64,000 nt of DNA from Candidatus Falkowbacteria bacterium (GTDB lineage Bacteria; Patescibacteriota; Patescibacteriia; UBA11705; JABHMO01), in contig JABHAL010000001.1 of NCBI GenBank assembly GCA_018674305.1, forward strand, positions 4,635-68,634. Reading direction: 5' to 3'. Numbering within the stretch: position 1 is the stretch's first letter; every line of letters starts with the position of its first letter. Of the stretch, positions 15,721 through 48,505 are shown piece by piece. Below the pieces are notes generated by a model, which had not been told where the DNA came from, made no database searches, and saw only the letters and a program-made list of their open reading frames with translations. The position numbers and the translations under genes are program-made.

Positions 15721-17922
15721 ATGGAACCAAATCACGATATTACCATCGAGGAACTGTATATCCCTTCAAAGCACGAAAAAAACACATACTTATGTGAAGA
15801 TTTTATTATTTATCCAGAAGGCAAAGAAAAAAACGGTGGCTATTTAATGGGTATTATTGAAATCAGGGCAACAAACATTGATGAAAGTGAAAAAATTGTT
15901 CAAACCATAATCAACAATCTCAAAGAGCATTATTACAATCAAATCAATTCATCACCCGAGCCACATAAACTCAATCTAGAAACAGTTTTCGAACACGCAC
16001 TACAAAAGACTAATGCTGCGCTAGTAGAAATGATACAAATCGGTCATATAAATCTAGTACTGGAAAATCTTCATTATGTTATCGCTGTAGCAAAGCCAAA
16101 TCAAGTCAAAAAAGAAATTGATTTTGTGTTTGCACATCAAGGGTTGATTCAAGTCTATTTATTACACAAAACCAAACAAAACAATTACAAGGTTTTAAAC
16201 ATAGTTGACAATACACCTCGAATCAAAGAGGAACAGTCTGACAAGCTAAAGATTTTTTCATCAACAATCAATGGAAAGATTTTTCACCACAATGCACTAT
16301 ACCTATGCTCAGAAATTTTCAGCAACTATATCCCTGCCCACAAAGTAAACAAAATCCTTTCCAGCAATGACTTATCAACAGCAATTGATTATTTCAAGAA
16401 CCTAATCAACAATGTAAAAAACAACTCCCACCTCACCTACTGCTCACTATTCATAAAAATGGAAGAAAAACGCAGCATATCTGATCAACCAATCTCCCAA
16501 CGATCAATTAACAAACTAATTGACACCAAGGACATTACTGAAAAATATTTATCACCCAATGTTGCTTTAAACATCTGGGGCACGTTGGGCAAAGTAATTG
16601 GCTGGGTCAAGAGTAAAAAAAGCAAGAAAACACTCCACTCTCCAAAAAATGAAAAGAAAATGAAATTTGGTATTCTAAAGTACATACTTAATGTAATAAA
16701 AATATTTGGCAGCTCTATTACTAAAATCGGAAAATCTATTGTAAATATATTTACTGGAAAAAGAAAACCAAAAACCGAAAAAACAGGTTCCCTAACTGCT
16801 CGCGCTGGAAAAAAATTATTCAGTTTACCAAAATTCAACAAAGCTCTTTTAATTTCTATTATTGTATTGATAGTAATATTTATATCTGGCATCTTTTGGA
16901 TGAATCACAATAAACAAGTCAAAGCTGATCAAGCTGCTTATACAACTGAAATACAAAAAGCAAAAAACTTTATTAACAATGCCCAAGTTAATTTAATCTA
17001 TAAAAATGAAAGCAAAAGCTTGGAGTTAATAAAACAGGCTGAGCAAATAATTCAGTACCTACCCCAAGCCTCAACTGTACAAAAAGCTAATCACACTGAA
17101 CTAACACGCCAAACTGAAAATATTAAAAATAAATTACTACACATTACTACACTTACACCACAATTAATTACAGAAATAAAAAAAGACGATCAACCAGTAC
17201 AACTAGCAAGCCTAAAAAAGATTGGGCAATCACTTTACACAAATAACCATAATAACAATTTATACTCAGTCAATTTGGACAACAAACAAACCACGTCCCT
17301 GAGCACCAGTACAGCTGGAGACTTTAATTTGAGCTTGCAGGAAGATGACAATCTGTACTTTATTACAAACCAAAACAAATTAATCAGATTTAATTCCGAA
17401 TCTAATGACTACAACACCTTATCTATTGACTGGGGAGAAAGTACAAATATTACAGCTGTTCAACTTTACAGTAAAAATATCTACGTATTAGACAAAGCCA
17501 AAGAACAAATCATCAAATGGAAAGCTAATGGCGATGACTTTGGCACAAGTACAAACTGGATAAAAGACAAAGGTGATGCTGTTTTAACTAAAGCTACCAG
17601 CCTGACAATTGATGGTAATATCTATATTGCCACAGAGCAAGGACAAATTTATAAATTCTTCACAGGAAGCAAGCAAGACTTTAACCTAACGACCATTGAA
17701 CCTAGTCTTAACGGTATCACAAAATTGTACACTTCACTTGACTTGGACCGTATTTACATCTTGGAAAGTAACAGTAAACGTATTGTGGTAATTAACAAGG
17801 AAGGTGCATTTGTAGCTCAATACTTATTTGACCTACTAGATCAAAACATTTCTGACTTTATTATCGAAGGCAAAACTCTATATTTAACTGTTGGCGGTAA
17901 ACTATACCAAGCTGAATTATAG
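15721..17922 (+). CDS. hypothetical bitopic membrane protein (cytoplasmic N-domain, TM, probable beta-propeller ectodomain)
   Basis: 733 aa; central TM ALLISIIVLIVIFISGIFWM; repetitive YxL/YVLD-type C-terminus. Confidence 0.5.
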   Translation: MEPNHDITIEELYIPSKHEKNTYLCEDFIIYPEGKEKNGGYLMGIIEIRATNIDESEKIVQTIINNLKEHYYNQINSSPEPHKLNLETVFEHALQKTNAALVEMIQIGHINLVLENLHYVIAVAKPNQVKKEIDFVFAHQGLIQVYLLHKTKQNNYKVLNIVDNTPRIKEEQSDKLKIFSSTINGKIFHHNALYLCSEIFSNYIPAHKVNKILSSNDLSTAIDYFKNLINNVKNNSHLTYCSLFIKMEEKRSISDQPISQRSINKLIDTKDITEKYLSPNVALNIWGTLGKVIGWVKSKKSKKTLHSPKNEKKMKFGILKYILNVIKIFGSSITKIGKSIVNIFTGKRKPKTEKTGSLTARAGKKLFSLPKFNKALLISIIVLIVIFISGIFWMNHNKQVKADQAAYTTEIQKAKNFINNAQVNLIYKNESKSLELIKQAEQIIQYLPQASTVQKANHTELTRQTENIKNKLLHITTLTPQLITEIKKDDQPVQLASLKKIGQSLYTNNHNNNLYSVNLDNKQTTSLSTSTAGDFNLSLQEDDNLYFITNQNKLIRFNSESNDYNTLSIDWGESTNITAVQLYSKNIYVLDKAKEQIIKWKANGDDFGTSTNWIKDKGDAVLTKATSLTIDGNIYIATEQGQIYKFFTGSKQDFNLTTIEPSLNGITKLYTSLDLDRIYILESNSKRIVVINKEGAFVAQYLFDLLDQNISDFIIEGKTLYLTVGGKLYQAEL

Positions 17923-18939: not shown

Positions 18940-18968
18940 AAACCCGCATTAATGCGGGTTTTCTTATT
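18940..18968 (-). terminator. rho-independent terminator after rplL
   Basis: cccgcattaatgcggg stem flanked by A6/T-run. Confidence 0.7.
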
Positions 18969-18977
18969 CAAGAAGTT

Positions 18978-19445
18978 TTATTTTAAGTTAACTGTTCCAC
19001 CTGCTTCCATTAATTTCTTTTTCATTTCTTCAGCTTCTTCTTTCTTAACAGCTTCTTTGATGACCTTAGGTGCAGCATCAACTAAATCTTTGGCATCTTT
19101 TAGACCTAAACCTGTAATTTCTTTTACTACCTTGATCACAGCGATTTTGTTTTCACCACAACTAGCTAATTCAACATCAAATTCACTTTTTTCTTCAACT
19201 GCAGCTTCTGCTCCAGGAGCAGCGGCCATAGCCATCATAGGTGCAGCAGCGCTAACACCAAACTTATCTTCTAGGATCTCAACTAATTCAGCTAGATCCA
19301 TAACAGTCATTTTTTCAATTTCTTCTACCAATGACTTAAATTTTGCAGGAACTGCAACTTCTTTTTTTTCCTCCACAGTTGCTGGAGCTTCAGTTGCCAC
19401 GTCCTTTGTCTCCTCTACTGGAGCTGTTGTTTTTTCGTCTGCCAT
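18978..19445 (-). CDS. rplL: 50S ribosomal protein L7/L12
   Basis: N-terminal dimerisation/Ala-rich hinge and C-terminal [16 protein letters not shown]...AGGTVNLK. Confidence 0.95.
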
Positions 19446-19517
19446 ATTTAGTATATTGTTATATTGCTATATTGTTATATTGTTATATACAATTTAACAA
19501 TTTAACAGTTTAACAGT
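19446..19517. repeat. tandem repeats (TATATTGT x4, then AATTTAACAG x4) filling the rplJ-rplL spacer
   Basis: tatattgttatattgctatattgttatattgttatatacaatttaacaatttaacagtttaacagttt. Confidence 0.7.
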
Positions 19518-20039: not shown

Positions 20040-20300
20040 ATATTAAAGGAGGGATAAGGAGGCTATAGGAGATAACTATGAATTATTAGATTTTAGTTAT
20101 CCTCTTGCCCCTCTATATCTTCTTTATCTTATAATAATTAAAAAATCTGCGTTAAATTCCGCAGACATATCTAAAAAAGGATATATTCCTCGACAGGTAA
20201 TTAAGCCCCTGATAAAATAAGGACACCCGTTGTCTACGGAGATTAATTTAATTGTTATAGATATTATAAAGTAAATTTTAGATTACGTCAACCCCACTAA
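20040..20300 (-). promoter_or_regulatory. rplJ promoter (TTGACG, 17 nt, TATAAT at ~20265-20293) and ~215-nt leader, putative L10 autoregulatory leader
   Basis: consensus promoter on the gene strand; long structured leader typical of rplJL operons; leader ends in a CU-rich tract instead of an SD. Confidence 0.4.
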
Positions 20301-20371
20301 ATTCACCTAAAATTACTACAACGTGAGCACTTTGCGAAACAAAAAAGAGGCTCCCCTTGCCTCTTGTGTTT

Positions 20372-21691
20372 TTATTCCAATTGAATCATTACTTCTGGAG
20401 CAATTGGATTTTGCTTGAATTTTTCCACAAAAATCTTTTTTACAATCGATTCCCTTTCAAAAGTTAGGAGCGTCGGATCATGCAAGACTTTTGACTGTCT
20501 AAGTTCTTTTTCGACATCAAAGGATAAACCTGTTACATGTTGATCAATTGATGATTGCAATACATCAGTTCGTGCCCATTTATCCAAAGCTACATGAAAC
20601 TCAATATCATCATTGATATCAAGTACATATTGGATCCTACTTTCAAATATAAAATTCTGTTCATTAGGTAAAACAGCATTCAACCGAAAATGCATTTTGA
20701 ACTCTCCATTTAACCGTAGTCCGGGCTCAATGGAATAGTATAAAGGACTGACTGACGCCTCTGTCCACTGCATAAAAGTATCTGTTTCATCCTGACTTAA
20801 ACGGGCTATTGGTCTATTTAGCTGTCGATCAATAACCACAAAACTTTTTTCCTGACCATTACTATCTTTATTAACATGAGTCCAATCGAAGCACCTACCA
20901 GCAGAAAACAGAACCAAGCTCGTCAAGATGAAACTTATCACCGTTATAGACAAGTGACGCCATTGCCAATGCATTTTTGTTCTTAATCCATAACTAGTAT
21001 AGTGTAGAAATAAGAAACCAGTGATATACACAATCCAAATCATAGCCATCAGTGGGATTGGAAAAAACTGGTACGCATGAACAGAAAATAACACCAAAGC
21101 ACCAATAGCACACACTTGGCTAAGTAAAAAAGCACTTCCGAAAACTGCTATAAAAACTAAATCACCAACAAATTCTAATTTACCGCCCCAAGATCGAACA
21201 ATACCCATATATTCAACTTTAACATTACCATTGACCAAGGTTATTTTCTCCTCGGTCCTATTGTGAATTCGATTACGCAGTTGATTCCAACGGTCACTAA
21301 CATCTGCACGCCACAGTTCAAACTTACTCAATCTTTTTTTAATATATTGCAAGTCTTGAGCTGAGCCTTCAAGCATGAACTTGAGCACTGGCCAGTGAAT
21401 AGACTTAATTGGTCGAGTAGAATACCCATCAAATCGGAAACTTTCCTTATTGTACTCAGACTCACCCGTTAGTAAATGGTAAACAGAAACACCAAGACTC
21501 TGCAAAGATACCGACACATCGCCAACTCTGTGCATTACTTCAAACTTCACCCTACCGACACTGGAAATCATGAGCCGAGTTGGAGTGAATAATGGAAACT
21601 CTCCCTTTTTCTCACCTTTGACTACTTCCTTAAATAACACTCGAAGCAACAAAAGCACTCTGTCATCATATTGTGATGATTCTTTTTCCAT
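20372..21691 (-). CDS. membrane protein with N-terminal protein-kinase C-lobe-like (pseudokinase) region
   Basis: DVSVSLQSLGVSVYHLLTGESEY resembles kinase subdomain IX (DVWSLGV.LYELLTG..PF); HRD/DFG equivalents are degenerate; 4-5 TM helices mid-protein. Confidence 0.4.
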   Translation of the reverse strand: MEKESSQYDDRVLLLLRVLFKEVVKGEKKGEFPLFTPTRLMISSVGRVKFEVMHRVGDVSVSLQSLGVSVYHLLTGESEYNKESFRFDGYSTRPIKSIHWPVLKFMLEGSAQDLQYIKKRLSKFELWRADVSDRWNQLRNRIHNRTEEKITLVNGNVKVEYMGIVRSWGGKLEFVGDLVFIAVFGSAFLLSQVCAIGALVLFSVHAYQFFPIPLMAMIWIVYITGFLFLHYTSYGLRTKMHWQWRHLSITVISFILTSLVLFSAGRCFDWTHVNKDSNGQEKSFVVIDRQLNRPIARLSQDETDTFMQWTEASVSPLYYSIEPGLRLNGEFKMHFRLNAVLPNEQNFIFESRIQYVLDINDDIEFHVALDKWARTDVLQSSIDQHVTGLSFDVEKELRQSKVLHDPTLLTFERESIVKKIFVEKFKQNPIAPEVMIQLE

Positions 21692-21797
21692 GTGATATTC
21701 CTCCTAGATTTTAATGTACAATTTTCATCAGAAAAGTCATTTTCAAAATCACTACTCTGATGAAAGCAGCACTATGTTTCGTGCTGCTTGTGTTTTT

Positions 21798-24200
21798 TTA
21801 GTTCATTGTTGGGTCACTTGGTACCGGTGTCGAATTAGACTGACTTCCACTTCCTGGATAAACAGCAGATTTTCTACTGATTCCCAGTCTTTCTTCGGCT
21901 TCAGACAAAGTCTGCTCCCAGCCCGTTGGTCTAAAGCGCTTAGAACTACATCGAAGTGCCATCACAGTTTGCCGATCCATATCAATAGGGTCTGTTTGCA
22001 TTTCCCAATCTGCAACTGCCTGGATCAAGTGTTTGGCTTCAACTATTTCCTTACCATTATCTTCTGCAATTAGATCAGCTTCACGTACCATCCAGTCGAT
22101 GTCAGCCCCCGTAATATAGAGCCTGTCTTTAGCGGCTTTGGCGAACCGGGTAAAGTCTGACAGTTGAGTTGGAATATCGTATTCGTTGAACTTAACTGCA
22201 AAAATCTGAGCCATGTCTTCTACCGTAGGCAGAACAAAGGGAATAACTTCATCGGTCCGGCCTTTTCGCCGGTAAGCAGAATCCAGTAAATCCTGCCTAT
22301 TGGTTAACCTAACCCAAATCACTCTACCCCGTCTCCTTGGATCAGAACAAAACTCAAACTTTTTCTTACGCATCCGGTTTGACACTCCAGCATCGCCACT
22401 TGCCGAATCGCGAGACCCCTCCGATTGATCAGCTTCATCTTCAATCACCACCACCGGCGACATGTCATCAATAATTCCTAGAATTTCATCTGTATTTTGT
22501 TCAGAGATGCCTTGCCACATGGATCGGAGTGTTCCAATACTCAAGCAGTTAAGGCCGGTCTCATGAGCAAAACACATCCAACAGGTTGTTTTGCCAGTAC
22601 CTGGTGGACCAGGTGACAAAATGCCAACTGGCACGCGTCGGTAAATCCCGTTTAGCATGTAGTACTGCAACTTTTGCAAATACTCAATCAGTTCAGGTCG
22701 ACCACCAAAATGATCATACCCGTATTCAGGATTTAACACATTAATTCGACCACCAAATTCATTCTGCAGTAAAGCTCTTTTTCGCTTGCGAATACTAGCT
22801 AAACTGATCCCCTGTCTTCGCACTACACTCAAACGATAAACCTCATCGATTTGCCGTAAAGACAAACCATTAGTCGCTCGACTAAGCATAGCAGGGGCTA
22901 GGCCCTCTTCCATTTCAACAGCTGTCTTGGTGGTCAAAAATCCCCAACGATCAGCTCGTTGCTCCTGCGTTGGTTTGGCAACTCGAATTGGCACAATTTC
23001 TGTATGCCCCTCGCGAATAGCCGGGTCCAACCGGGAAAGTTGCGGTGTGATCAGAAAGACTAGTGTGCCCGAATCTCTTACTCGATGATCCATTGCCCAA
23101 CGCTGAAGAGTTTCTGATACAATTCGGTCTCCCCGACCTTGCCCTTGGCTAGCATTGTAAGGAAACACATTATCCGCAAAGTTAATAACTAACACCTTGG
23201 GAGATGGTTTACGCTCTTTTCTTTCCCTTTTTGAATCACCAATCAAGGCTTTTTCCAAAAGCGGGAAAACTTTTTCTGGCATAGTACCAATCAAATCCTG
23301 CAAGGGCGTATTTTGCCGACTGGTGTTAAATGCATCAGCCAACTTTTGTTCACCACCTGAACCTGATCGTCTAGATCTACCACCATGACTTTCAGGTGGC
23401 GGCTGAGCTTCAGATTTTGGCATATATAAGTCACGAAAAGTATCTTCCATTTCTTCGTCAGCAAATTGCAGACCAGCTGAAAGACAATAATACATAATCA
23501 GCTTGCGCTGACTAAATATTTCTTCCAGATACTGCTGCAAAGTCAGATAAACACCTTTTTGATTTTGCTGCAAATCAGCAACATTACCCCACAGCGCAAA
23601 CACATGGCCAAACTTAGCTCGTCTTTTTTCATCAAGCTCAGTTAACCAATCAGCCATTGGAGTAAATTCATGTGTTCCTTCAACAGCAAATTCCTTAGCA
23701 GGTGATTCATTGACTTTGAGCTTTTGTTTGGCTTCTGGTGTAAAAACACTCAGTTCGCACCAAACATAGCGCTTACCATCATACTTGAACTGCTTAGGGA
23801 ACCAGGGCTTTTTCTTGTCCTTATTAGAAATTTCCTGCCCATCTTTAAAGGTTGCAAACTCAACCAACAAAGCATTGGTATAAGGGTTTATTGCGCGAAC
23901 AATTCCATTCAGATGTTTCGCCTTGCCACGTTGTGGTGTTACTCCATCACTTATCTTGTACAACAAGTCTGGCCGCTCAAATAAGATCAAGCCTTCCGCA
24001 GAAACTGGGGTTACCATTTTCTTTGTGGTCATGTTTTCTAACCACAGATTTTCCGTACCCTCAACTCCCTTGACTAGAAACTTGGCAATTTTTGAACGTC
24101 CCTGCTGAAAAGAAACTTGCACCACAATATCGTTCGCTCGAAACCCCCACAAAACTTTTTCTGTATCGATAGTTGAATTGCCTTCACGAAAACTTACCAT
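21798..24200 (-). CDS. AAA+ ATPase, 800 aa: N-domain, degenerate D1 and active D2
   Basis: Walker A GPPGTGKTT, Walker B VVVIEDEAD, C-terminal lid GADIDWMVREA...AKHLIQAV; the preceding ~200 aa look like an ATPase fold without a P-loop. Confidence 0.7.
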   Translation of the reverse strand: MVSFREGNSTIDTEKVLWGFRANDIVVQVSFQQGRSKIAKFLVKGVEGTENLWLENMTTKKMVTPVSAEGLILFERPDLLYKISDGVTPQRGKAKHLNGIVRAINPYTNALLVEFATFKDGQEISNKDKKKPWFPKQFKYDGKRYVWCELSVFTPEAKQKLKVNESPAKEFAVEGTHEFTPMADWLTELDEKRRAKFGHVFALWGNVADLQQNQKGVYLTLQQYLEEIFSQRKLIMYYCLSAGLQFADEEMEDTFRDLYMPKSEAQPPPESHGGRSRRSGSGGEQKLADAFNTSRQNTPLQDLIGTMPEKVFPLLEKALIGDSKRERKERKPSPKVLVINFADNVFPYNASQGQGRGDRIVSETLQRWAMDHRVRDSGTLVFLITPQLSRLDPAIREGHTEIVPIRVAKPTQEQRADRWGFLTTKTAVEMEEGLAPAMLSRATNGLSLRQIDEVYRLSVVRRQGISLASIRKRKRALLQNEFGGRINVLNPEYGYDHFGGRPELIEYLQKLQYYMLNGIYRRVPVGILSPGPPGTGKTTCWMCFAHETGLNCLSIGTLRSMWQGISEQNTDEILGIIDDMSPVVVIEDEADQSEGSRDSASGDAGVSNRMRKKKFEFCSDPRRRGRVIWVRLTNRQDLLDSAYRRKGRTDEVIPFVLPTVEDMAQIFAVKFNEYDIPTQLSDFTRFAKAAKDRLYITGADIDWMVREADLIAEDNGKEIVEAKHLIQAVADWEMQTDPIDMDRQTVMALRCSSKRFRPTGWEQTLSEAEERLGISRKSAVYPGSGSQSNSTPVPSDPTMN

Positions 24201-24215
24201 TGGCTACCTCCCCTT

Positions 24216-24407
24216 CTATCCGCAAGGGCTGTCGGTCGTAACATCGACCCTAAAACCCGCTTTTTGAAGTAGCACTAGGAACAACTGACTTCCTTTATGA
24301 CCGTCCTGGGAAAAGTCCTGCAAAACTAGTCGACCGTCGATAAAGTCAATCACAACGTCATAATGACGTCTTACTTTTGGATCAAGTTTTTTGACGTTTT
24401 TTGACAT
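24216..24407 (-). CDS. small protein (63 aa), paralog of 24382..24606
   Basis: MSKNVKKL...LQKAGFRVDVTTD shares the MSK start and AG(K)(M)GFRVD motif with the neighbouring small ORF; SD-like ggaggtag before the next gene. Confidence 0.35.
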   Translation of the reverse strand: MSKNVKKLDPKVRRHYDVVIDFIDGRLVLQDFSQDGHKGSQLFLVLLQKAGFRVDVTTDSPCG

Positions 24408-24606
24408 GGACTTCCTCCACTTGAGCCTCAGGACGACGACTACCCCCTTCTTCCTCAGTATCAACCCTAAATCCCATTTTACCAGCCAACACCTTAAAAA
24501 GGGCCATCTTGGCTTGACAACGTTTTCCTCCGGGATCACCAGGACAATGAACATCCATGATCAACTTACCATCTTCGACTTTAACGTCTACAATGTCCTT
24601 GCTCAT
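24382..24606 (-). CDS. small protein (74 aa)
   Basis: ATGA start/stop overlap with the upstream 171-aa gene (translational coupling); MSKDIVDVKVEDGKLIMDVHCPGDPGGKRC...AGKMGFRVDTEEE. Confidence 0.45.
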   Translation of the reverse strand: MSKDIVDVKVEDGKLIMDVHCPGDPGGKRCQAKMALFKVLAGKMGFRVDTEEEGGSRRPEAQVEEVHVKKRQKT

Positions 24607-25118
24607 GATACGCTCACCCCCTGAAAACTGATCGACTCAATTTTCCCAGTGCTCGAATTTTGTCGCGTTGACAACTCTGAAACCTCATGACCAGTTGCTC
24701 TCATCAAAGCCAACAGAGTTTCACTCAACATCAGGTTGACAAACTCTTGTTCCAGCAAATCCGCAGCCTTAGCTGTTTCACCCTCGGCGCGATAGAATTG
24801 AACCTGACCATTGTAATTATGGACACCCACGGCCAAGCCGTAAGTCAACCCACTTGGCTTAACAACTCCACGAAATTGCGTGTTGTTATAGCTTCTGATT
24901 CTTTCACCACGATCCATCAGAGCAAGCTCAACGGTTGTGTCTACTTCATCTCGATAACGATTCAAGACTCGATCAAGGCATTCCATGATCAAGTCAGCAG
25001 AATCAAAATCTCTGGCAACTACGGCTAACTGCTCATCAAGAGCAGCTAACTCTTCCATGGCTTCTTCCACAACTTGTGGCACGTCAATACAGACACCTGC
25101 AATCAACACTCTACTCAT
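24603..25118 (-). CDS. hypothetical protein, first gene of the GC-elevated cassette
   Basis: strong SD GAAGGAGGT before the ATG; ~48% GC. Confidence 0.45.
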   Translation of the reverse strand: MSRVLIAGVCIDVPQVVEEAMEELAALDEQLAVVARDFDSADLIMECLDRVLNRYRDEVDTTVELALMDRGERIRSYNNTQFRGVVKPSGLTYGLAVGVHNYNGQVQFYRAEGETAKAADLLEQEFVNLMLSETLLALMRATGHEVSELSTRQNSSTGKIESISFQGVSVS

Positions 25119-25247
25119 TGGAACCTCCTTCTCGTTGGGTTACACAAATGTAAAGAACACACTAACTACCTATACTTTTATTATAACTTGTCAAATTTTA
25201 AATAGCTAGCATTTGACTCTATATCTTAAAACTTTTTTTTAGTTAAA

Positions 25248-25292
25248 TCAATAAAAAACTCATGCTATACCATTTAACATGAGTTTTAGTCA
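25248..25292 (-). terminator. rho-independent terminator after pyrH
   Basis: aaactcatg...catgagttt stem then tttttatt on the minus strand. Confidence 0.55.
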
Positions 25293-42958: not shown

Positions 42959-45900
42959 TTATTTGATCTGCACACTATCAGCCTTGGAATAATTAATTAT
43001 TGATGGACTATTACTAGATTGAATAGTTACCGGCTCAGCTCGGTATTCACCAAGAGCAGCTACTCGAGCATAGTACTTAAAGTAGTTTAGACCTTTACAC
43101 GGTTGCCAATTCTTATTCATACCAAACTTTATCTTCTGATCATTAATTTCGTAAGGATAACGTAGACCACACCAACTCCTAATACCAATTGAGTAAGGTC
43201 TAGTTACGCCTTTCAAACCACTTGGTAAAATATCGGTTATTTGATAATAACCATCGACCGAATCAACAGAAATCTGAGGATATAAACGAACCTCAATTAT
43301 ATCTCCAGCTGAAAAATGATTAACCTGCTGACCATCCACATAATATTGACGGTCAACTGACACATACTGACTAAATGCCTGATCAGTTACTTTTTCTTGA
43401 TAAATACTGGTTACGCCAATATCACCTTGTACGTCCTCAATTTTTAGCCTAGCCAACTGTTCAGGTAATAAGTCTAGCTTGAAGTTTTGACCATTTTCTA
43501 ATTCTTTTTTGTATTTTTTCCCATCAACGTTAACAGTGAAACTAACTGGCCCAACATTCAAGGTTGGCAGACGCTTTGTCAAATAATTAACTTCTTCTAA
43601 ATTGATCAAGACATCTTTAGTCCGGTGATCTGCCAGATAAGACCAAAGCCCTTTATGATATGGGTCATTCAGACCAGCTGCCAACACAGCAGCTAAACTT
43701 GTTGCCTGCAAAACATCATCTTGATCTTTGCCAGTTTTAATTCGGACATAAGAATCTAATTCTTCAGCATTTTCTTTCATTACCTCTAGATAAAGTTTAC
43801 GACCAAGTTCACGATCACCGATCTCAAATGCTGCCAATGCAATATATAATTTTTCTTTAACAGTAACATCTTCAAGTGTCGCAATATTTTGAATTGGCAA
43901 AAGCACAGGCTCTCCCAATCCAGCTAATCCGTAAAGGGAAATAATTACTTCCTCCTGACTAGACTCTTCTGAATTTAGTTTTGTGTAAAAATACTTTGAC
44001 AAAGAAACTTTATCAAATTCAGCCCCTGCAATTGAAGCAACTTTGGCACTCAATTCAAAGTCACTTGAACTATAAGGCAATAAAGTCAAACCACCTTTAC
44101 TCTCCTGATAAGTAGCTGAATTAAAGTTATCTACTTTGTATTCCTTACTGAAATACTGCTTAAATAACTTTTGAGCGGCAACTTTGGAAACTCTCTGGTC
44201 CAACCGATCTCCGTACTGCCAACTTAATCGAAGTAGTCGATGATAAAGCTGTCCAATACTCTCGTCCATAAAAACTAGAGTTGTTCTGTCCGTTGCCGAA
44301 CCAGAAATTTCCACGCCTGACTCATACTTATAATAATCCTGCACTTCTTTGGTCAACAAACTTTCAGCCACAGCAAATTTATTTATCAAGGTATCTTCAA
44401 GTTCACCCTTTTTGGCAGTTGAACTAATTTCATACTGTCCAACGCCAACTTCCCCTAGCGCTACGCTTAAAGCATCAAAAGCTTCCGTTTGTTTAACTAT
44501 TTTATTCAAGTCTAATGCTTCAGAACTAATTTCATAATCAATCACATCACCTGAAGTTAAAGTTTCACCATATGTTCGTAACTGCATAACAGGAGAATCC
44601 CCTTCCAAAAACTTATCTGGTAAAGTTGAGTTTATAAACAAAGGAAGACTAACCGGCAAGGCTGTTACCTCTCTACCAGCGTAAATATCCTTATTAATTG
44701 CCTGCGTAGTAATTCGCCATGAGGTTATATTATCAGGTAATTCAAATCTAACAGTTGCGCGACCAAATAAATCAGTCTTGGCCATTTTGAATAAAGCAGT
44801 ATCCTGAAAGTCTTCTCGCGCTCCACCTTTGTCATTGTGAACAAAGAAACCTTCTGCGAAATATGTGTGATATTTTTCAATATGTAAATTATAAACATCA
44901 ACCATTTGACCGAATCTCTCAATGCTCTCAATTTTAACTCTTTGACCAAATTCATCTAATAAATAATCACCTACTTTAGACTGACCAATCATCTGCCAAC
45001 CATTATTAACAAATACTCTATGCTCAGGAGTAACCCGCAACTTCCCATTAATTAGGTAATAGCCATAAACTGTATGCTCAAAAGTGTTTAACACTTTAGC
45101 TCTAACTAATTTCTTCGATAGCGGATCACTAAAAGTTAAGATCTCATCACCAATCTGAATTTCTTCAATATTCTTGTATGAGCCGTCAGCCATCTTGATC
45201 TGGGTACCAGCCACAAAACAACCGCCCATACCACTCGCATCAGGCGCCAAAGACAATGCTTCATGGGAAGCATAAGTCGTTTTTAGTCCAGCACTTTCCA
45301 ACTGATATACACTGGCCAAAATATCTGCCCAATCTTCGCTCAGCTGAAAAAAGGCTTCATCAACCAAACTTAAATTCAAAGTTGCTGCAACCGGATTTCC
45401 TTTTTGATTAGTAACTTTAACTTCTAATTCCACATCCTCACCTGGTGCATACTCCTCCTTATTTGAAGTAACTTCAACATTTAATTCTTTTTCTGAATAA
45501 TCATATCTGATTGATGTTCCACTGCTAGAACTATACCAATTGTTACTTCCGCTCTGATGATATTTCTCACCATCAAACCAAACTCCACTAACATAAATAT
45601 TTGGAATATAGCTATCCTTGAAGTTAAATTCGTAAACTGGTTCAGTTGACAATGAATAGTCAACTAGACCACGTCGCATCTTGTAGTACAAATAATCTTT
45701 CTTTTCCTGAGAAGATAAAATATCATTATTTTTTGTGAATTCCAAAATCACACTCTCGTCTACCTTAAACTTAACTTTATCACCCTTAATTGCCAACTTA
45801 TAATATTCGTAATTATTGGAACTATATGGATTGCCATAATATGAAGAGCCATACATTTGAGTGGATAAATAATTATTCCCTTGCTCATCAATGGCAATCA

Positions 45901-48505
45901 AGCGAATTTGGTAATAACTCTTTTCTTCAGTTTCAAATTCATAAGTAAACTCACCTGCGGCATCAGTTAAACCTGACATCTCATGAATAACTTTTTCTTC
46001 TTTTTCGTACTTGTATTTTTTATTAACGACCTTATTAATATAATCATACTCTTCACCAATTTCATTCTTGTGCCAAATTATTTGGATAATTTTACCTTTA
46101 ATAGCTGTATTTGGCGCCACTTCTTCCTCATCAACAACACTCCAAAGACTCCCTTTGGCCCTTTTCTCTAAATCGTATTTTTTCACTGTGGCCTTTATTT
46201 TTGCTGTTAATGAATTCTTTTCTTTTGGCGCAACTTCCATCTTGGTATAAACACGAGAGTTATAAGTATAGACATAAGCTGTTTGATTAATCTGTGCCAC
46301 TTCCGGTTGCGTTGAATTCAAATTTAAGTATACTGTTTGCATGTTGGAACAATATGTTTTTTCTAAAGTACACTTAGTCGCGACTGATGGCACCTCGATA
46401 CGCGCCTCACCAGCTAAGTCAACCTCGACTTCTCCTTTCACAGACTTATTACTGGAACTATAATCTAAAACTAAATCTGACACGGGAGTACCTTCAAAAA
46501 ATTCCGCATTAACATCAAAAACTGCAGTTTCTCCGGACCAAATCACTTTATTCTCTGGCTCAACCTTGATTTGATATGCTGGTTTATCGTAAGTCTGAAT
46601 ATTAATGTACTTAGTAGACAAAATCTCATCACCAAGTCTAACGTCCACATAATAATAACCCGGGACTAACTTTTCAAGCTTCAACTCACCAGAATAAACA
46701 AAATCAGGAGACACTTCAAGTTCTTGTTCTGCCAAACTTATTTCTTCATTATAATAATTATAATAACGAGCATAACTATTTTGCCGCAAAGCAACTGTAA
46801 CTTTTTCATCAATCCCCTTTGAATCCTTGGGTTTTACAAATCCCCAAAATTTAATAGTATCGTCAGGTTGAAATAAATTTCGATCAGTGTAAAAATATTT
46901 CCAATACTCTTTTTGCTCTTGTTTAGAAAAACTAACAGGAACAATAGTTACATCACCATCTTTTCGAACCCTCAAGTAGTCAGTCTCATATCGATCTTCC
47001 TCGCTAAAAACAAAAGCTGTGTCGGTATTAAATTTAGTAATTCCTTGACCGTCAGTACTTTTAGTAATTCCACTGGAAATTATTTTAACCTCAGCATTTT
47101 GAACTGACCCTTTATCCACAATACTATTAACCCAAACTAGGCTTTCACTGGTAGACACCATAGAAAATACTGCTAATTCACTAACTGAGAAAAAAGTCTG
47201 TCTTTTCACGTCCTGAACAGTTGATTCAATGACATAAAACCCCGGTTCATATACTTCTGGAAAAACTATAAACTTATTGTAATTAACTTCTCGAACTTCC
47301 AATTCATAGTCAGTTATATGACTAAGGGTATTAGTGTCAACCAAAGAAGACTCGCGATTATAGCTTGCCCAAGCAGGATAATCATATCTACTTTTCAGCG
47401 CCTCTAAATAAGCTGTATCATTGGCCAAGGAATAAACATTTAACTTAATTTTACTATCAAGTAAATTTCGTTCGTAAACTTTGAAGGCTGGCTCTCTAGT
47501 TGGAGAAAATTCTAGATAATCACCGATAATCATGAAGTAAGGTTTATTATTTGAACCTCGCTTATAATTTACCAATGGACTGGTCTCAAATTGCAGGGTG
47601 TAATCTTTTACCATTTTTTCATCTGACTCCGACAAAGGTAACTCCTTGTCTACAATTATTCTGTAAATAGTACCAGGCATTAAATTCTTGGGTACAAAAA
47701 CCCAAGTTCTTTTATGCTTTTCGAAACTTCCATCAACCTTTGGTTCAATTGTAAAATGTTTAGCAAACTCTTCCACATTGTCATGACTGAAAGTAAATTC
47801 AATTCCTGTATCAAGTGGTACCCCAGAACTTTTATCACGAGGCAAAGAGCCGATAATTTTGAATTGGTCTTTAGTTTGAAACGCCCAAGAATAATCTTGT
47901 TCAAATGTTAAACCGCTTTCTGCCATAATAGAGGCCGAAATTACAACACTATAAACAACTCGTGGTTGCAATGGTTCACTTGGAATAATCTTAAACTCAT
48001 GATCATTTACTTTTTTAAAACTAAACTCTAATTCAGGTTTGATCTGAATATTCTCTTCCAATAATTCTGAATCTACGACTTCTTTACTTTTAATAACAAA
48101 AGCAGTGTCCGACTCAACGCCAATACTATCACTAACTGTCGCCTCAACTGTAAAATTATCCTGCGCGTATGCTGGACTAATTATAAGTCGAGAAAATTCA
48201 CTGAAAGGTGAATCTTGGCCAGGCCAGTAATGACTAGCTGTTACAAGTAAAGCAAAAATCACCAGAACAGCTAGAACTGGAGATAAGCGCCTGACAGTAA
48301 AAAGTGAAGAAAATCCTTTTACAAAATTTAGCATATGTTTTTTTTGCTGCCGTTTTTCTAGGATCTTCGATTTTAATGCATAACGAAAATCATCAGAAGC
48401 AGGCTCATTTTTAAATTGTGCTTTTTTTAGCATACTCTCTGCTTCCTGTAACGGATGATTTTCACTTTTATTACGTTTTTTATTGTTATTGTTGTAATTT
48501 TGCAT
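42959..48505 (-). CDS. giant (1848 aa) surface protein: anti-sigma-like cytoplasmic N-terminus, TM, MG/Ig-like repeats, embedded Hint domain, alpha-2-macroglobulin-like TED region (no CGEQ)
   Basis: start 3 nt after the ECF sigma stop; TM LSPVLAVLVIFALLVTA at ~aa 75-95; LSLVDEAFFQL and ITSWRITTQAIN resemble A2M-family motifs; C...HN Hint domain. Confidence 0.6.
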   Translation of the reverse strand: MQNYNNNNKKRNKSENHPLQEAESMLKKAQFKNEPASDDFRYALKSKILEKRQQKKHMLNFVKGFSSLFTVRRLSPVLAVLVIFALLVTASHYWPGQDSPFSEFSRLIISPAYAQDNFTVEATVSDSIGVESDTAFVIKSKEVVDSELLEENIQIKPELEFSFKKVNDHEFKIIPSEPLQPRVVYSVVISASIMAESGLTFEQDYSWAFQTKDQFKIIGSLPRDKSSGVPLDTGIEFTFSHDNVEEFAKHFTIEPKVDGSFEKHKRTWVFVPKNLMPGTIYRIIVDKELPLSESDEKMVKDYTLQFETSPLVNYKRGSNNKPYFMIIGDYLEFSPTREPAFKVYERNLLDSKIKLNVYSLANDTAYLEALKSRYDYPAWASYNRESSLVDTNTLSHITDYELEVREVNYNKFIVFPEVYEPGFYVIESTVQDVKRQTFFSVSELAVFSMVSTSESLVWVNSIVDKGSVQNAEVKIISSGITKSTDGQGITKFNTDTAFVFSEEDRYETDYLRVRKDGDVTIVPVSFSKQEQKEYWKYFYTDRNLFQPDDTIKFWGFVKPKDSKGIDEKVTVALRQNSYARYYNYYNEEISLAEQELEVSPDFVYSGELKLEKLVPGYYYVDVRLGDEILSTKYINIQTYDKPAYQIKVEPENKVIWSGETAVFDVNAEFFEGTPVSDLVLDYSSSNKSVKGEVEVDLAGEARIEVPSVATKCTLEKTYCSNMQTVYLNLNSTQPEVAQINQTAYVYTYNSRVYTKMEVAPKEKNSLTAKIKATVKKYDLEKRAKGSLWSVVDEEEVAPNTAIKGKIIQIIWHKNEIGEEYDYINKVVNKKYKYEKEEKVIHEMSGLTDAAGEFTYEFETEEKSYYQIRLIAIDEQGNNYLSTQMYGSSYYGNPYSSNNYEYYKLAIKGDKVKFKVDESVILEFTKNNDILSSQEKKDYLYYKMRRGLVDYSLSTEPVYEFNFKDSYIPNIYVSGVWFDGEKYHQSGSNNWYSSSSGTSIRYDYSEKELNVEVTSNKEEYAPGEDVELEVKVTNQKGNPVAATLNLSLVDEAFFQLSEDWADILASVYQLESAGLKTTYASHEALSLAPDASGMGGCFVAGTQIKMADGSYKNIEEIQIGDEILTFSDPLSKKLVRAKVLNTFEHTVYGYYLINGKLRVTPEHRVFVNNGWQMIGQSKVGDYLLDEFGQRVKIESIERFGQMVDVYNLHIEKYHTYFAEGFFVHNDKGGAREDFQDTALFKMAKTDLFGRATVRFELPDNITSWRITTQAINKDIYAGREVTALPVSLPLFINSTLPDKFLEGDSPVMQLRTYGETLTSGDVIDYEISSEALDLNKIVKQTEAFDALSVALGEVGVGQYEISSTAKKGELEDTLINKFAVAESLLTKEVQDYYKYESGVEISGSATDRTTLVFMDESIGQLYHRLLRLSWQYGDRLDQRVSKVAAQKLFKQYFSKEYKVDNFNSATYQESKGGLTLLPYSSSDFELSAKVASIAGAEFDKVSLSKYFYTKLNSEESSQEEVIISLYGLAGLGEPVLLPIQNIATLEDVTVKEKLYIALAAFEIGDRELGRKLYLEVMKENAEELDSYVRIKTGKDQDDVLQATSLAAVLAAGLNDPYHKGLWSYLADHRTKDVLINLEEVNYLTKRLPTLNVGPVSFTVNVDGKKYKKELENGQNFKLDLLPEQLARLKIEDVQGDIGVTSIYQEKVTDQAFSQYVSVDRQYYVDGQQVNHFSAGDIIEVRLYPQISVDSVDGYYQITDILPSGLKGVTRPYSIGIRSWCGLRYPYEINDQKIKFGMNKNWQPCKGLNYFKYYARVAALGEYRAEPVTIQSSNSPSIINYSKADSVQIK
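44834..45220 (-). other. Hint / bacterial intein-like (BIL) domain, 129 aa, embedded in the giant protein
   Basis: GMGG|CFVAGTQIKMADG...HIEKYHTYFAEGFFVHN|DKGG: N-terminal Cys, block-A-like start, C-terminal His-Asn; the +1 residue is Asp, so a BIL-type cleavage module rather than a splicing intein; coordinates +/-1 nt. Confidence 0.6.

What the first reader, a model, noticed from the sequence alone, without database searches (positions are those of the whole stretch)
20372..25118. GC-elevated five-gene cassette: double-domain AAA+ ATPase, pseudokinase-like membrane protein and two small overlapping paralogs
The block is ~40-48% GC against ~32% background and has its own promoter and a strong SD (GAAGGAGGT) that most host genes lack. 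It encodes, in order: a 171-aa protein; a translationally coupled 74-aa protein; a 63-aa paralog of it (shared MSK start and AG(K)MGFRVD motif); an 800-aa AAA+ ATPase (degenerate D1, active D2 with a classic C-terminal lid); and a 439-aa polytopic protein whose N-terminus resembles a catalytically dead protein-kinase C-lobe. AAA+ unfoldase plus small beta-rich proteins plus a pseudokinase sensor is not a housekeeping combination I recognise. Candidates include a horizontally acquired defence or stress module, or a small-protein-tagging or compartment system.
Basis: partly seen in the sequence, partly recalled or inferred. Interest (0 to 1): 0.75.

Follow-up and report, generated by a model that had tools for sequence, protein, structure and literature searches.

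The report
Phage-type AAA+ module in Falkowbacteria
The cassette is a real, selected five-gene unit. It is a divergent chromosomal copy of an uncharacterised module seen mostly on predicted viral contigs: a DUF1257-like protein, two DUF2997-type mini-proteins and a half-dead/half-live AAA+ motor, plus a lineage-specific membrane protein with a kinase-like domain.

Summary
Most structural claims hold. The two small proteins are paralogs. The ATPase has a P-loop-less D1 and a complete classical-AAA D2. The membrane protein's N-domain models as a protein-kinase C-lobe without catalytic motifs.

The "recently acquired island/defence" reading does not hold. The cassette sits in the same place (amino-acid kinase | cassette | rplJ-rplL) in at least three related Falkowbacteria-like lineages (the window with L127, L001, L063/L064). 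It diverges in step with rplJ/rplL, and it matches no PADLOC system.

Its relatives identify it. ATPases with the same dead-D1/live-D2 architecture lie on IMG/VR and metagenome contigs, preceded in many loci by DUF1257 (Ycf35 family), then DUF2997. In the most canonical subset a further small Cys-rich protein ending in "...PYCG" precedes the ATPase.

- The 74-aa protein aligns to DUF2997 (hhalign E 5e-6).
- The 63-aa protein fills the third slot and also ends in "CG".
- The 171-aa protein fills the DUF1257 slot, but homology is only marginal (P about 0.02).

Function is unknown. I infer a dedicated AAA+ remodelling machine with small partner proteins.

The parts
25255..25287 (-). Terminator-like hairpin ending the upstream amino-acid-kinase gene. 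It marks the 5' boundary of the cassette.
   Evidence: Scan: 13-pair stem followed by a T-run.
25180..25185 (-). TATAAT -10 box of the cassette promoter. There is no properly spaced -35.
   Evidence: Read from the sequence. A TG-n-TATAAT-like box is conserved in L127, L062, L001 and L063. The consensus scan did not call it.
25149..25158 (-). Conserved 5'-leader motif GTTCTTTACA between the -10 box and the SD. Possibly an operator or RNA element.
   Evidence: Conserved across orthologous loci whose proteins are only 30-55% identical. The leader has about 2 changes in roughly 75 nt versus L127, while synonymous sites differ by 30-40%.
24603..25118 (-). 171-aa protein occupying the DUF1257/Ycf35 slot. 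Invariant N-terminal Met-Ser. Predicted TBP-like/KA1-like alpha+beta fold.
   Evidence: - AF2 pLDDT 82, pTM 0.77.
- Only 4 clusters found in 1.84 billion representatives.
- hhalign vs 25 DUF1257 sequences is colinear over 140 columns, but P = 0.016 only.
- dN/dS 0.16.
24382..24606 (-). 74-aa divergent DUF2997-type mini-protein, translationally coupled (ATGA) to the 171-aa gene.
   Evidence: - hhalign of its 5-member family vs phage DUF2997: prob 86%, E 4.7e-6, full length, including the conserved Cys. E 1.6e-5 with 17 sequences.
- No direct Pfam hit.
- dN/dS 0.15.
24216..24407 (-). 63-aa paralog of the 74-aa protein. It overlaps that gene's 3' end and has an invariant C-terminal Cys-Gly (SPCG). 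It fills the slot of the '...PYCG' small protein of canonical modules.
   Evidence: - hhalign B1 vs B2: prob 94.6%, E 6.8e-8.
- All orthologs end in CG.
- Canonical third proteins (L110, L111, L114, L116, L119) also end in CG and overlap the DUF2997 gene.
- dN/dS 0.19.
23691..24200 (-). ATPase residues 1-170: a beta-rich N-terminal extension specific to this Falkowbacteria clade.
   Evidence: Present only in the window protein and P0002 in alignment A1. It is a separate 123-aa ORF in L063/L064 and is absent from L129 and the phage homologs.
22716..23675 (-). ATPase residues ~176-495: a degenerate AAA domain (D1) with no Walker A. It carries the family signature HGNVxD.
   Evidence: Alignment A1. 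hhalign D1 vs D2: E 0.0035, 217 colinear columns. An HMM of this domain picks out the family.
21798..22703 (-). ATPase residues ~500-800: an active classical-clade AAA domain with lid and C-terminal tail.
   Evidence: - Pfam AAA 1.1e-20 and LonB lid 2.7e-5.
- Best PDB matches are the VAT/Cdc48/p97 D2 domains.
- GPPGTGKT, IEDEAD, TNR, RRKGR and the pore loop MWQG are conserved.
- dN/dS 0.09 over the first ~424 codons of the ATPase (N-extension and D1), the part covered by L127.
21764..21789 (-). Stem-loop between the ATPase and the 439-aa gene. It may act as a partial terminator or processing site.
   Evidence: 9-pair stem. The T-run is better on the opposite strand.
20372..21691 (-). 439-aa membrane protein with three parts: an N-domain (residues 1-127) that is kinase-C-lobe-like without catalytic motifs, about 3 TM helices (residues ~171-268), and a C-terminal alpha/beta domain.
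   Evidence: - Homologs are linked to the cassette in L001 and L063/64 (downstream) and in L065 and L129 (divergent, upstream).
- No Pfam or PDB sequence hit.
- GC is host-like.
20345..20365 (-). Intrinsic terminator ending the cassette. The rplJ promoter and L10 leader follow.
   Evidence: Terminator and promoter scan. Rfam L10_leader at 20257..20131.

Best explanation
**What it is.** The cassette is a vertically inherited, divergent version of an uncharacterised four-gene module. The order is: a DUF1257-like protein, then DUF2997, then a DUF2997-derived small protein with a C-terminal Cys-Gly, then a tandem AAA+ ATPase. Outside this lineage the module lies mostly on predicted phage or prophage DNA. 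In this Falkowbacteria-like lineage it has become fixed between an amino-acid-kinase gene and rplJ-rplL. It has also gained an N-terminal extension on the ATPase and a dedicated membrane partner.

**Proposed mechanism** (inferred, not shown).
- The ATPase forms a hexamer.
- Its P-loop-less D1 ring acts as a structural or docking ring.
- Its intact D2 ring (Walker A/B, sensor 1, Arg fingers, aromatic pore loop) hydrolyses ATP and pulls on polypeptide.
- The TBP/KA1-fold 171-aa protein and the two mini-proteins are stoichiometric partners that bind the ATPase. They either select the substrate (as adaptors) or are themselves engaged through the exposed Cys-Gly tail.
- The membrane protein couples the machine to the envelope. 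Its cytoplasmic dead kinase C-lobe is a docking or regulatory surface, and its C-terminal domain probably lies outside the cell.

The substrate and the physiological role are unknown.
For: **Shown here**
1. The genes are real and under purifying selection.
2. Gene order is the same in L001, L062, L063/64, L127 and L129. The amino-acid-kinase and/or rplJ-rplL flanks are kept where the contig reaches them (L001, L063/64, L127). Identities follow the rplJ/rplL pattern.
3. ATPases with the same D1 signature occur in 28 sequence clusters.
   - About 12 of about 19 informative non-Falkowbacteria clusters have a Pfam-type DUF2997 next to them.
   - 15 of 18 viral contigs with DUF1257 also carry DUF2997 and an AAA gene on the same strand within 6 kb.
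4. The 74-aa family aligns to DUF2997 (E 4.7e-6 and 1.6e-5). The 63-aa family is its paralog (E 6.8e-8).
5. The third-slot proteins of canonical modules and all 63-aa orthologs end in Cys-Gly. Both overlap the preceding gene.
6. D2 motifs and the pore loop are intact, and D1 is degenerate.
7. The 171-aa model folds confidently as a TBP/KA1-like domain, a typical binding module.
8. The membrane protein stays linked to the cassette in two different gene arrangements.
Against: - Homology of the 171-aa protein to DUF1257 is only marginal (hhalign P 0.016-0.23; no Pfam hit; no BFVD structural match).
- The 63-aa family versus the canonical CG-tail family is not significant by profile (E 0.26).
- No physical interaction, ATPase activity or substrate has been shown.
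- No member of the module has been studied experimentally, as far as the literature searches reach.
- The viral status of the IMG/VR contigs is a prediction. No full-length homolog exists in 50,697 isolated-phage records.
- The kinase-like fold rests on a model with pLDDT 56.
Confidence: 0.6

Rival explanations
1. A domesticated anti-phage (superinfection-exclusion or abortive-infection) module. The ATPase and small proteins sense or dismantle a phage component, and the membrane protein acts as effector or sensor.
For: - Its closest relatives are on predicted viral contigs. Phage-derived modules kept by hosts are often defensive (general knowledge).
- Weak PADLOC AAA hits to TRIP13 and IetA.
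- The small proteins evolve fast (32-40% identity where rplL is 77%).
Against: - The PADLOC hits cover only the generic AAA domain. The other four proteins have none.
- The position is stable and syntenic next to rplJ-rplL in several lineages. That is not a variable defence island.
- No nuclease, protease, TIR or other recognised effector domain was found.
- dN/dS of 0.09-0.19 shows no sign of an arms race.
Confidence: 0.17
2. A small-protein tagging or carrier system. The CG-tailed 63-aa protein is conjugated or carries a thiol-linked group, and the AAA+ ATPase recognises or unfolds tagged targets, by analogy with Pup-Mpa, SAMP-PAN and ubiquitin-Cdc48.
For: - The C-terminal Cys-Gly is invariant in all orthologs and in the canonical third-slot proteins.
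- The classical-clade AAA is closest to the Cdc48/PAN D2 domain.
Against: - No E1, ligase, deamidase or JAMM gene lies in or next to any of the cassettes examined.
- The tail is CG, not GG or GGQ.
- The canonical third proteins look like Zn-knuckle proteins (CxxC...CxxC...CG; weak zf hits). The last Cys may simply bind metal.
- No HbYX motif is present, and CPR bacteria have no proteasome (general knowledge).
Confidence: 0.07
3. A recently acquired horizontal island, recognisable by foreign GC content.
For: - Genes 1-4 are about 8 GC points above background.
- Synonymous divergence from L127 is 2-3 times lower in the cassette than in the flanking kinase gene (dS 0.37-0.58 vs 1.2). That could mean recombinational exchange between close lineages.
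Against: - The same insertion site and gene order occur in genomes whose rplJ is only 60-65% identical. Cassette identities follow the same tree.
- The GC rise is also present in those genomes and affects codon positions 1 and 2 as well, so it reflects protein composition.
- Other host genes reach similar GC (maximum 0.484).
Confidence: 0.05
4. A ribosome- or translation-linked housekeeping factor, suggested by its fixed position directly upstream of the L10 leader and rplJ-rplL.
For: - Adjacency to rplJ-rplL in the window, L001 and L063/64.
- One distant ATPase homolog (L004) lies next to RtcB and a PrfH-like release factor.
Against: - The cassette has its own terminator, and rplJ has its own promoter and leader.
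- In L065/L129 and on all viral contigs no ribosomal genes are nearby.
- The family is extremely rare (4 clusters in 1.84 billion representatives), unlike a translation factor.
Confidence: 0.06

Closest known systems
DUF2997 (Pfam PF11211) and DUF1257/Ycf35 (PF06868): the cyanobacterial and plastid pair, clustered with ferredoxin Fed7 in cyanobacteria (PMC4284462). Ycf35 is still functionally uncharacterised (PMC13060386).
   Same: - The gene order matches: DUF1257-slot protein, then DUF2997.
- The 74-aa family aligns full length to DUF2997, including the conserved Cys.
- The 171-aa family keeps the N-terminal Met-Ser of the 'MSH' motif and gives a colinear, though marginal, alignment.
   Different: - No Pfam-level hit for any window protein.
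- The 171-aa protein carries about 45 extra helical residues near its N-terminus.
- The partner is an AAA+ ATPase, not a ferredoxin.
- The DUF2997 gene is duplicated, and the copy has a CG tail.
The DUF1257 - DUF2997 - 'PYCG' mini-protein - AAA module on IMG/VR and metagenome contigs (e.g. L111 5215-7827, L116 5195-7680, L006 3056-6902). I found no description of it in the literature.
   Same: - The canonical loci (L111, L116, L119) have the same four slots in the same order. In L006-type contigs other genes are inserted and no CG-tail protein was seen.
- The third gene overlaps the 3' end of the second.
- The third protein ends in Cys-Gly.
- The ATPase has the same HGNVxD dead D1 and a live D2 (25-29% identity over both domains).
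   Different: - The window's small proteins are too diverged for HMM detection.
- The third protein has lost the CxxC cysteines.
- The ATPase has an extra 170-residue N-terminal extension.
- A membrane protein with a kinase-like domain is added.
- The location is chromosomal and syntenic rather than viral.
Cdc48/VAT/p97 and other classical-clade tandem AAA+ unfoldases that work with adaptor proteins
   Same: - The D2 domain is closest to the Cdc48/VAT D2 domain (E 1e-73 for the family profile).
- It has the SRH arginine fingers and an aromatic pore loop.
- It has a two-ring layout.
   Different: - It scores 83 bits against a 803-bit cutoff for TIGR01243 CDC48.
- It has no double-psi-barrel N-domain.
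- D1 has no P-loop at all.
- The partners are unrelated to the Ufd1/Npl4/UBX adaptors.
Hanks-type receptor Ser/Thr kinases and pseudokinases (PknB, YabT, PAN3)
   Same: - The predicted topology is a cytoplasmic kinase-like domain, then TM helices, then an outside domain.
   Different: - Only the C-lobe is present (about 125 residues).
- There is no N-lobe and no VAIK, HRD or DFG motif.
- There is no Pkinase hit, even at E 10.
- It cannot phosphorylate.

Membership tests
DUF2997 (PF11211) | Match to the Pfam HMM at or above the gathering score | tested here: not met
   No hit at E <= 10 for the 74- or 63-aa proteins or for their orthologs.
DUF2997 (PF11211) | Profile-profile similarity to bona fide members over the full length, with the conserved G..G..C and the helix-G segment | tested here: met
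   74-aa family vs 13 and 17 DUF2997 sequences: prob 86% and 79%, E 4.7e-6 and 1.6e-5. The 63-aa family is linked only through its paralog (E 6.8e-8). Its direct comparison gives E 0.1-0.18.
DUF2997 (PF11211) | Lies next to a DUF1257 gene | tested here: inconclusive
   It is directly downstream of, and translationally coupled to, the 171-aa gene. The DUF1257 identity of that gene is not proven.
DUF1257 / Ycf35 (PF06868) | Match to the Pfam HMM | tested here: not met
   No hit for the 171-aa protein, P0123-P0125 or the L001 ortholog.
DUF1257 / Ycf35 (PF06868) | Profile-profile or structural similarity to members | tested here: inconclusive
   hhalign is colinear over 129-146 columns, but P ranges from 0.23 to 0.016 as the DUF1257 profile deepens. 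BFVD gives no match. AFDB was unavailable. No DUF1257 structure is in the PDB.
DUF1257 / Ycf35 (PF06868) | N-terminal 'MSH' motif (PMC13060386) | tested here: inconclusive
   Met-Ser is invariant in all six family members, but the third residue is R, E or K, not H. The phage DUF1257 proteins also vary at this position (MSA, MSS, MSL, MSH).
Classical AAA (PF00004) ATPase | Walker A, Walker B, sensor 1, SRH arginine fingers and a lid domain | tested here: met
   Pfam AAA 1.1e-20 and lid 2.7e-5. The motifs are invariant in alignment A1.
CDC48 family (TIGR01243) | Score above the family cutoff, two active AAA domains and a Cdc48 N-domain | tested here: not met
   83 bits against a cutoff of 802.65. 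D1 lacks a P-loop. No CDC48_N hit.
Known anti-phage defence systems (PADLOC-DB v2) | Specific hits to the proteins that define a system | tested here: not met
   Only generic AAA-domain hits for the ATPase (TRIP13 1.9e-9, IetA 2.4e-8). Nothing for the other four proteins.
Hanks-type protein kinase | Pkinase domain with VAIK, HRD and DFG catalytic motifs | tested here: not met
   No Pfam or PDB sequence hit. The motifs are absent from alignment A7.
Hanks-type protein kinase | Kinase C-lobe fold | tested here: inconclusive
Ubiquitin-like / Pup tagging systems | C-terminal GG or GGQ modifier together with an E1, ligase or deamidase gene | tested here: not met
   The tail is (P/F)CG. No such enzyme gene occurs in any cassette examined.

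The most novel reading that the evidence does not exclude
DUF1257 (Ycf35), DUF2997 and a Cys-Gly-tailed mini-protein are the dedicated partners of a previously unrecognised family of dead-D1/live-D2 AAA+ motors. Together they form a new kind of protein machine that phages carry and that a CPR lineage has domesticated and wired to a membrane pseudokinase-like sensor. If so, the long-orphan plastid and cyanobacterial Ycf35/DUF2997 pair would be the motor-less remnant of the same machine, and its function would become testable through the ATPase.
Probability: 0.3. Interest if true: 0.8.

Novelty: new variant of a known kind. Interest (0 to 1): 0.6.

Why it matters
- **A handle on two orphan families.** It ties DUF1257/Ycf35 and DUF2997 to a specific AAA+ motor through a repeated gene neighbourhood. 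Ycf35 is conserved in cyanobacteria and many plastids and is still of unknown function. The motor gives a biochemical way in, through ATPase assays, complexes and substrates.
- **Phage-to-host transfer in a reduced genome.** A module seen mostly on predicted viral contigs has been fixed and elaborated in the small genome of a Candidate Phyla Radiation bacterium. Retained genes in such genomes are likely to matter.
- **Two specific features to test.** These are the invariant C-terminal Cys-Gly and the orphan kinase C-lobe on a membrane protein.

Tried and rejected
- **Direct family searches.** Pfam, NCBIfam, PHROGs and PADLOC searches of the four non-ATPase proteins gave nothing.
- **Homologs of the 171-aa protein.** A word-indexed search found only near-identical copies. 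An exhaustive phmmer search found 4 clusters.
- **Structure searches.** BFVD Foldseek with the 171-aa model had no significant match. AFDB50 was not available.
- **Isolated phages.** tblastn of phage DUF1257 against INPHARED gave no match. The ATPase gave only generic AAA hits covering 47% of the query.
- **PDB.** No solved DUF1257 or DUF2997 structure exists.
- **GTDB genomes.** A scan with DUF1257 patterns returned a single locus, an Acidobacteria prophage (L066), because the patterns were too specific.
- **Cyanobacterial ~600-aa AAA hits.** Locus P0080 is a different context (GvpL/F, ArsA) with two intact AAA domains, so I dropped it.
- **Slr0373-0376/Ycf46 idea.** My early idea that this is the Synechocystis operon was recalled from memory and could not be tested. 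I do not claim it.
- **L003's 147-, 42- and 67-aa proteins.** They could not be linked significantly to either family, although L112 has a homolog of the 67-aa one.
- **Metagenome scan.** A first attempt with a 7-sequence D1 alignment failed for lack of conserved stretches.
Full report
**1. The observation**

- 171 aa (25118..24603)
- 74 aa (24606..24382)
- 63 aa (24407..24216, inside a longer mechanical ORF)
- 800 aa (24200..21798)
- 439 aa (21691..20372)

The sequence shows an ATGA stop/start overlap between genes 1 and 2 and a 26-nt overlap between genes 2 and 3. Strong SD boxes lie before genes 1, 4 and 5. A stem-loop lies between genes 4 and 5, and a proper terminator follows gene 5. Immediately downstream come a promoter, the Rfam L10 leader and rplJ-rplL.

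The organism is a Candidatus Falkowbacteria (CPR) bacterium. The ATPase is 100% identical to an NCBI protein of that name.

GC content needs some correction:
- Genes 1-4 are GC 0.43-0.46 against 0.369 +/- 0.037 for 49 other genes of the window (z about 2).
- The rise is seen at all three codon positions.
- Gene 5 is host-like at 0.375.
- The background is 0.36, not 0.32.

Against a close relative (L127), dN/dS is 0.16, 0.15, 0.19 and 0.09 for the 171-, 74- and 63-aa genes and the ATPase. All are therefore genuine coding genes.

**2. Not a recent island**

The same cassette occurs in other Falkowbacteria-like contigs:
- L001/L002: 181/71/59/789/496 aa, then rplJ and rplL.
- L063/L064: glycosyltransferase, amino-acid kinase, 178/71/66/(123+653)/498 aa, then rplJ and rplL. 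This is the window's own synteny.
- L062.
- L127/L128: amino-acid kinase, then 171/74/63/ATPase.
- L065 and L129: here the 439-family gene lies divergently upstream.

Pairwise identities among the window, L001 and L063 follow the same pattern for rplJ (64/60/74%), rplL (77/77/88%), the ATPase (54/55/75%) and the small proteins. This means vertical descent. The modest GC excess of genes 1-4 recurs in all these genomes. It is therefore a property of the genes, not a mark of foreign origin.

PADLOC gives only generic AAA-domain hits.

**3. The ATPase**

Alignment with its three closest distinct relatives (P0002 52%, P0003 28%, P0004 26%) shows three parts:
- A clade-specific N-terminal extension (residues 1-170).
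- A domain (~176-495) with the invariant signature HGNVxD where a P-loop would be.
- A complete classical AAA domain with GPPGTGKT, IEDEAD, TNR, RRKGR, a W-Q/V-G (or YVG) pore loop and a lid.

The first domain aligns colinearly with the second over 217 columns (hhalign E 0.0035). The Walker-B, sensor-1/SRH and lid segments are in register.

The best solved relatives are the VAT/Cdc48/p97 D2 domains. The protein is far below the CDC48 family cutoff.

**4. What the relatives carry**

ATPases with this D1 occur on IMG/VR contigs of 25-215 kb, in an Acidobacteria prophage (L066) and in 36 metagenome loci.

In L006 the genes upstream of the ATPase are DUF1257 (Pfam E 3.7e-13) and DUF2997 (E 8.5e-4).

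Searching in the other direction, 15 of 18 distinct viral contigs that carry DUF1257 also carry DUF2997 and an AAA gene on the same strand within 6 kb.

The clearest loci are L111, L116, L119, L110 and L114. They have a compact order:
- DUF1257, starting "MSH..."
- DUF2997
- a 59-81-aa Cys-rich protein ending in "...NPYCG" or "NRWCG", whose gene overlaps the 3' end of the DUF2997 gene
- the ATPase

Pfam confirms DUF1257 (1e-11) and DUF2997 (5e-12, 3e-8) above their cutoffs.

Among 28 ATPase clusters, about 12 of about 19 informative non-Falkowbacteria clusters have a Pfam-type DUF2997 alongside.

No full-length homolog exists in 50,697 isolated-phage records. I found no paper describing the association. 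The cyanobacterial DUF2997-Ycf35-Fed7 cluster is known (PMC4284462). Ycf35 is still uncharacterised (PMC13060386).

**5. Mapping the window's small proteins onto the module**

None of them hits Pfam directly.

*74-aa protein.* Its family (5 sequences) aligns to DUF2997 with probability 86%, E 4.7e-6, over the full length and including the conserved Cys. With a broader DUF2997 set the value is E 1.6e-5.

*63-aa protein.*
- Its family is a paralog of the 74-aa family (94.6%, E 6.8e-8).
- It does not align significantly to the canonical third protein (E 0.26).
- It occupies the same slot and overlaps the preceding gene in the same way.
- Every ortholog ends in Cys-Gly (SPCG, or SFCG in L129), as do all canonical third proteins.
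- The canonical third protein is itself DUF2997-derived (E 2.5e-4).

*171-aa protein.*
- Its family is tiny: 4 clusters among 1.84 billion representatives.
- It has an invariant N-terminal Met-Ser.
- It models confidently (pLDDT 82, pTM 0.77) as a TBP-like/KA1-like alpha+beta domain behind an N-terminal helical segment.
- Its alignment to DUF1257 is end-to-end colinear. It reaches only P = 0.016 with the deepest profile I could build.
- I therefore treat it as the positional equivalent of DUF1257 and a probable, but unproven, homolog.

**6. The membrane protein**

Homologs accompany the cassette in every lineage where enough sequence is available. They lie downstream in three lineages and divergently upstream in L065/L129. 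The linkage therefore looks functional. The viral modules lack this protein.

The sequence lacks an N-lobe and the HRD and DFG motifs.

About three hydrophobic helices follow, then an alpha/beta C-terminal domain. With three TM helices that domain would lie outside the cell (inference).

**7. Interpretation**

*Shown:* a selected, vertically inherited cassette that corresponds slot by slot to an uncharacterised, mostly virus-borne module built around a dead-D1/live-D2 classical AAA+ ATPase.

*Inferred:* the ATPase is a hexameric polypeptide-pulling motor. The 171-aa binding-fold protein and the two mini-proteins are its adaptors, cofactors or primary clients. The Cys-Gly tail and the conserved cysteines point to metal binding or recognition of the tail. 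The membrane protein docks or regulates the machine at the envelope.

*Less likely:*
- The defence reading is possible but has no specific support.
- Tagging lacks the enzymes.
- Recent HGT is contradicted.
- A ribosome-linked role rests only on inherited adjacency.

**8. Novelty**

The components are known only as DUFs, and the module itself appears undescribed. The window holds a strongly diverged, elaborated and chromosomally fixed variant of it. I rate it a new variant of a known general kind (an AAA+ motor with dedicated small partners). There is about a 0.3 chance that it represents a distinct machine that would also explain Ycf35/DUF2997.

Noticed in passing
window 25149-25185 (minus strand); L127, L062, L001, L063 upstream regions: The 5' leader of the cassette is more conserved than synonymous sites. 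A TG-n-TATAAT-like -10 box and a GTTCTTTACA motif about 20 nt downstream recur in orthologous loci whose proteins are only 30-55% identical. This may be an operator or RNA regulatory element.
   Followed up: partly
window 21798-25118 vs L127: Synonymous divergence from the close relative L127 is 2-3 times lower in the cassette (dS 0.37-0.58) than in the adjacent amino-acid-kinase gene (dS about 1.2). Either synonymous sites are constrained or the cassette was exchanged between close lineages. Only one flanking gene was compared.
   Followed up: partly
L063 7937-10294 and L064 1160-3517: In this lineage the ATPase's N-terminal extension is a separate 123-aa ORF, followed in another frame by the 653-aa ATPase. 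Two independent assemblies show this. It is a true split gene or a frameshift.
   Followed up: no
L120 54-1538: A distant ATPase homolog is preceded by a 494-aa protein. Its N-terminus resembles the 439-aa protein's kinase-like domain (hhalign E 0.029, 126 columns) and is fused to PQQ-type beta-propeller repeats.
   Followed up: partly
L004 1270-6575: Another homolog of the ATPase (P0004) lies in a run with RtcB, a PrfH-like RF-1 protein and a large ankyrin-repeat protein. No DUF1257 or DUF2997 is detectable there.
   Followed up: no
L006 3475-3975; L008 3062-4480: On the viral contigs the module is interleaved with nucleotide-metabolism and replication genes. These are a nucleoside 2-deoxyribosyltransferase between DUF1257 and DUF2997 (Pfam), and ORFs that by eye look like a radical-SAM activase and a DEDD-type exonuclease (not profile-checked). 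L008/L009/L066 carry two tandem DUF1257 paralogs.
   Followed up: no
L110 301-546, L111 5771-5959, L116 5732-5959, L119 5719-5952: The canonical third-slot proteins share WW...CxLCG...C..C...NPYCG, a zinc-knuckle-like pattern (weak zf-nanos and zf-CCHC hits). The Falkowbacteria versions keep only the last Cys.
   Followed up: partly
L127 97-444: In the close relative, the gene upstream of the amino-acid kinase is a bAvd/23S-rRNA-IVP family protein, the type of accessory protein found in diversity-generating retroelements. The window has a membrane protein there instead, so synteny breaks just upstream of the kinase.
   Followed up: no
window 20131-20291: A near-consensus promoter (TTGACG-17-TATAAT) and an Rfam L10 leader (55 bits) precede rplJ. 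The ribosomal genes are therefore a separate transcription unit from the cassette.
   Followed up: yes
window 18952-19497 (+): A 181-aa low-complexity ORF lies antisense to rplL. It is almost certainly a mechanical artefact.
   Followed up: no
window 42959-48505 (-) and 15721-17922 (+): There is a 1848-aa ORF, and a 733-aa ORF that is one of the very few plus-strand genes in the window. Neither was examined.
   Followed up: no
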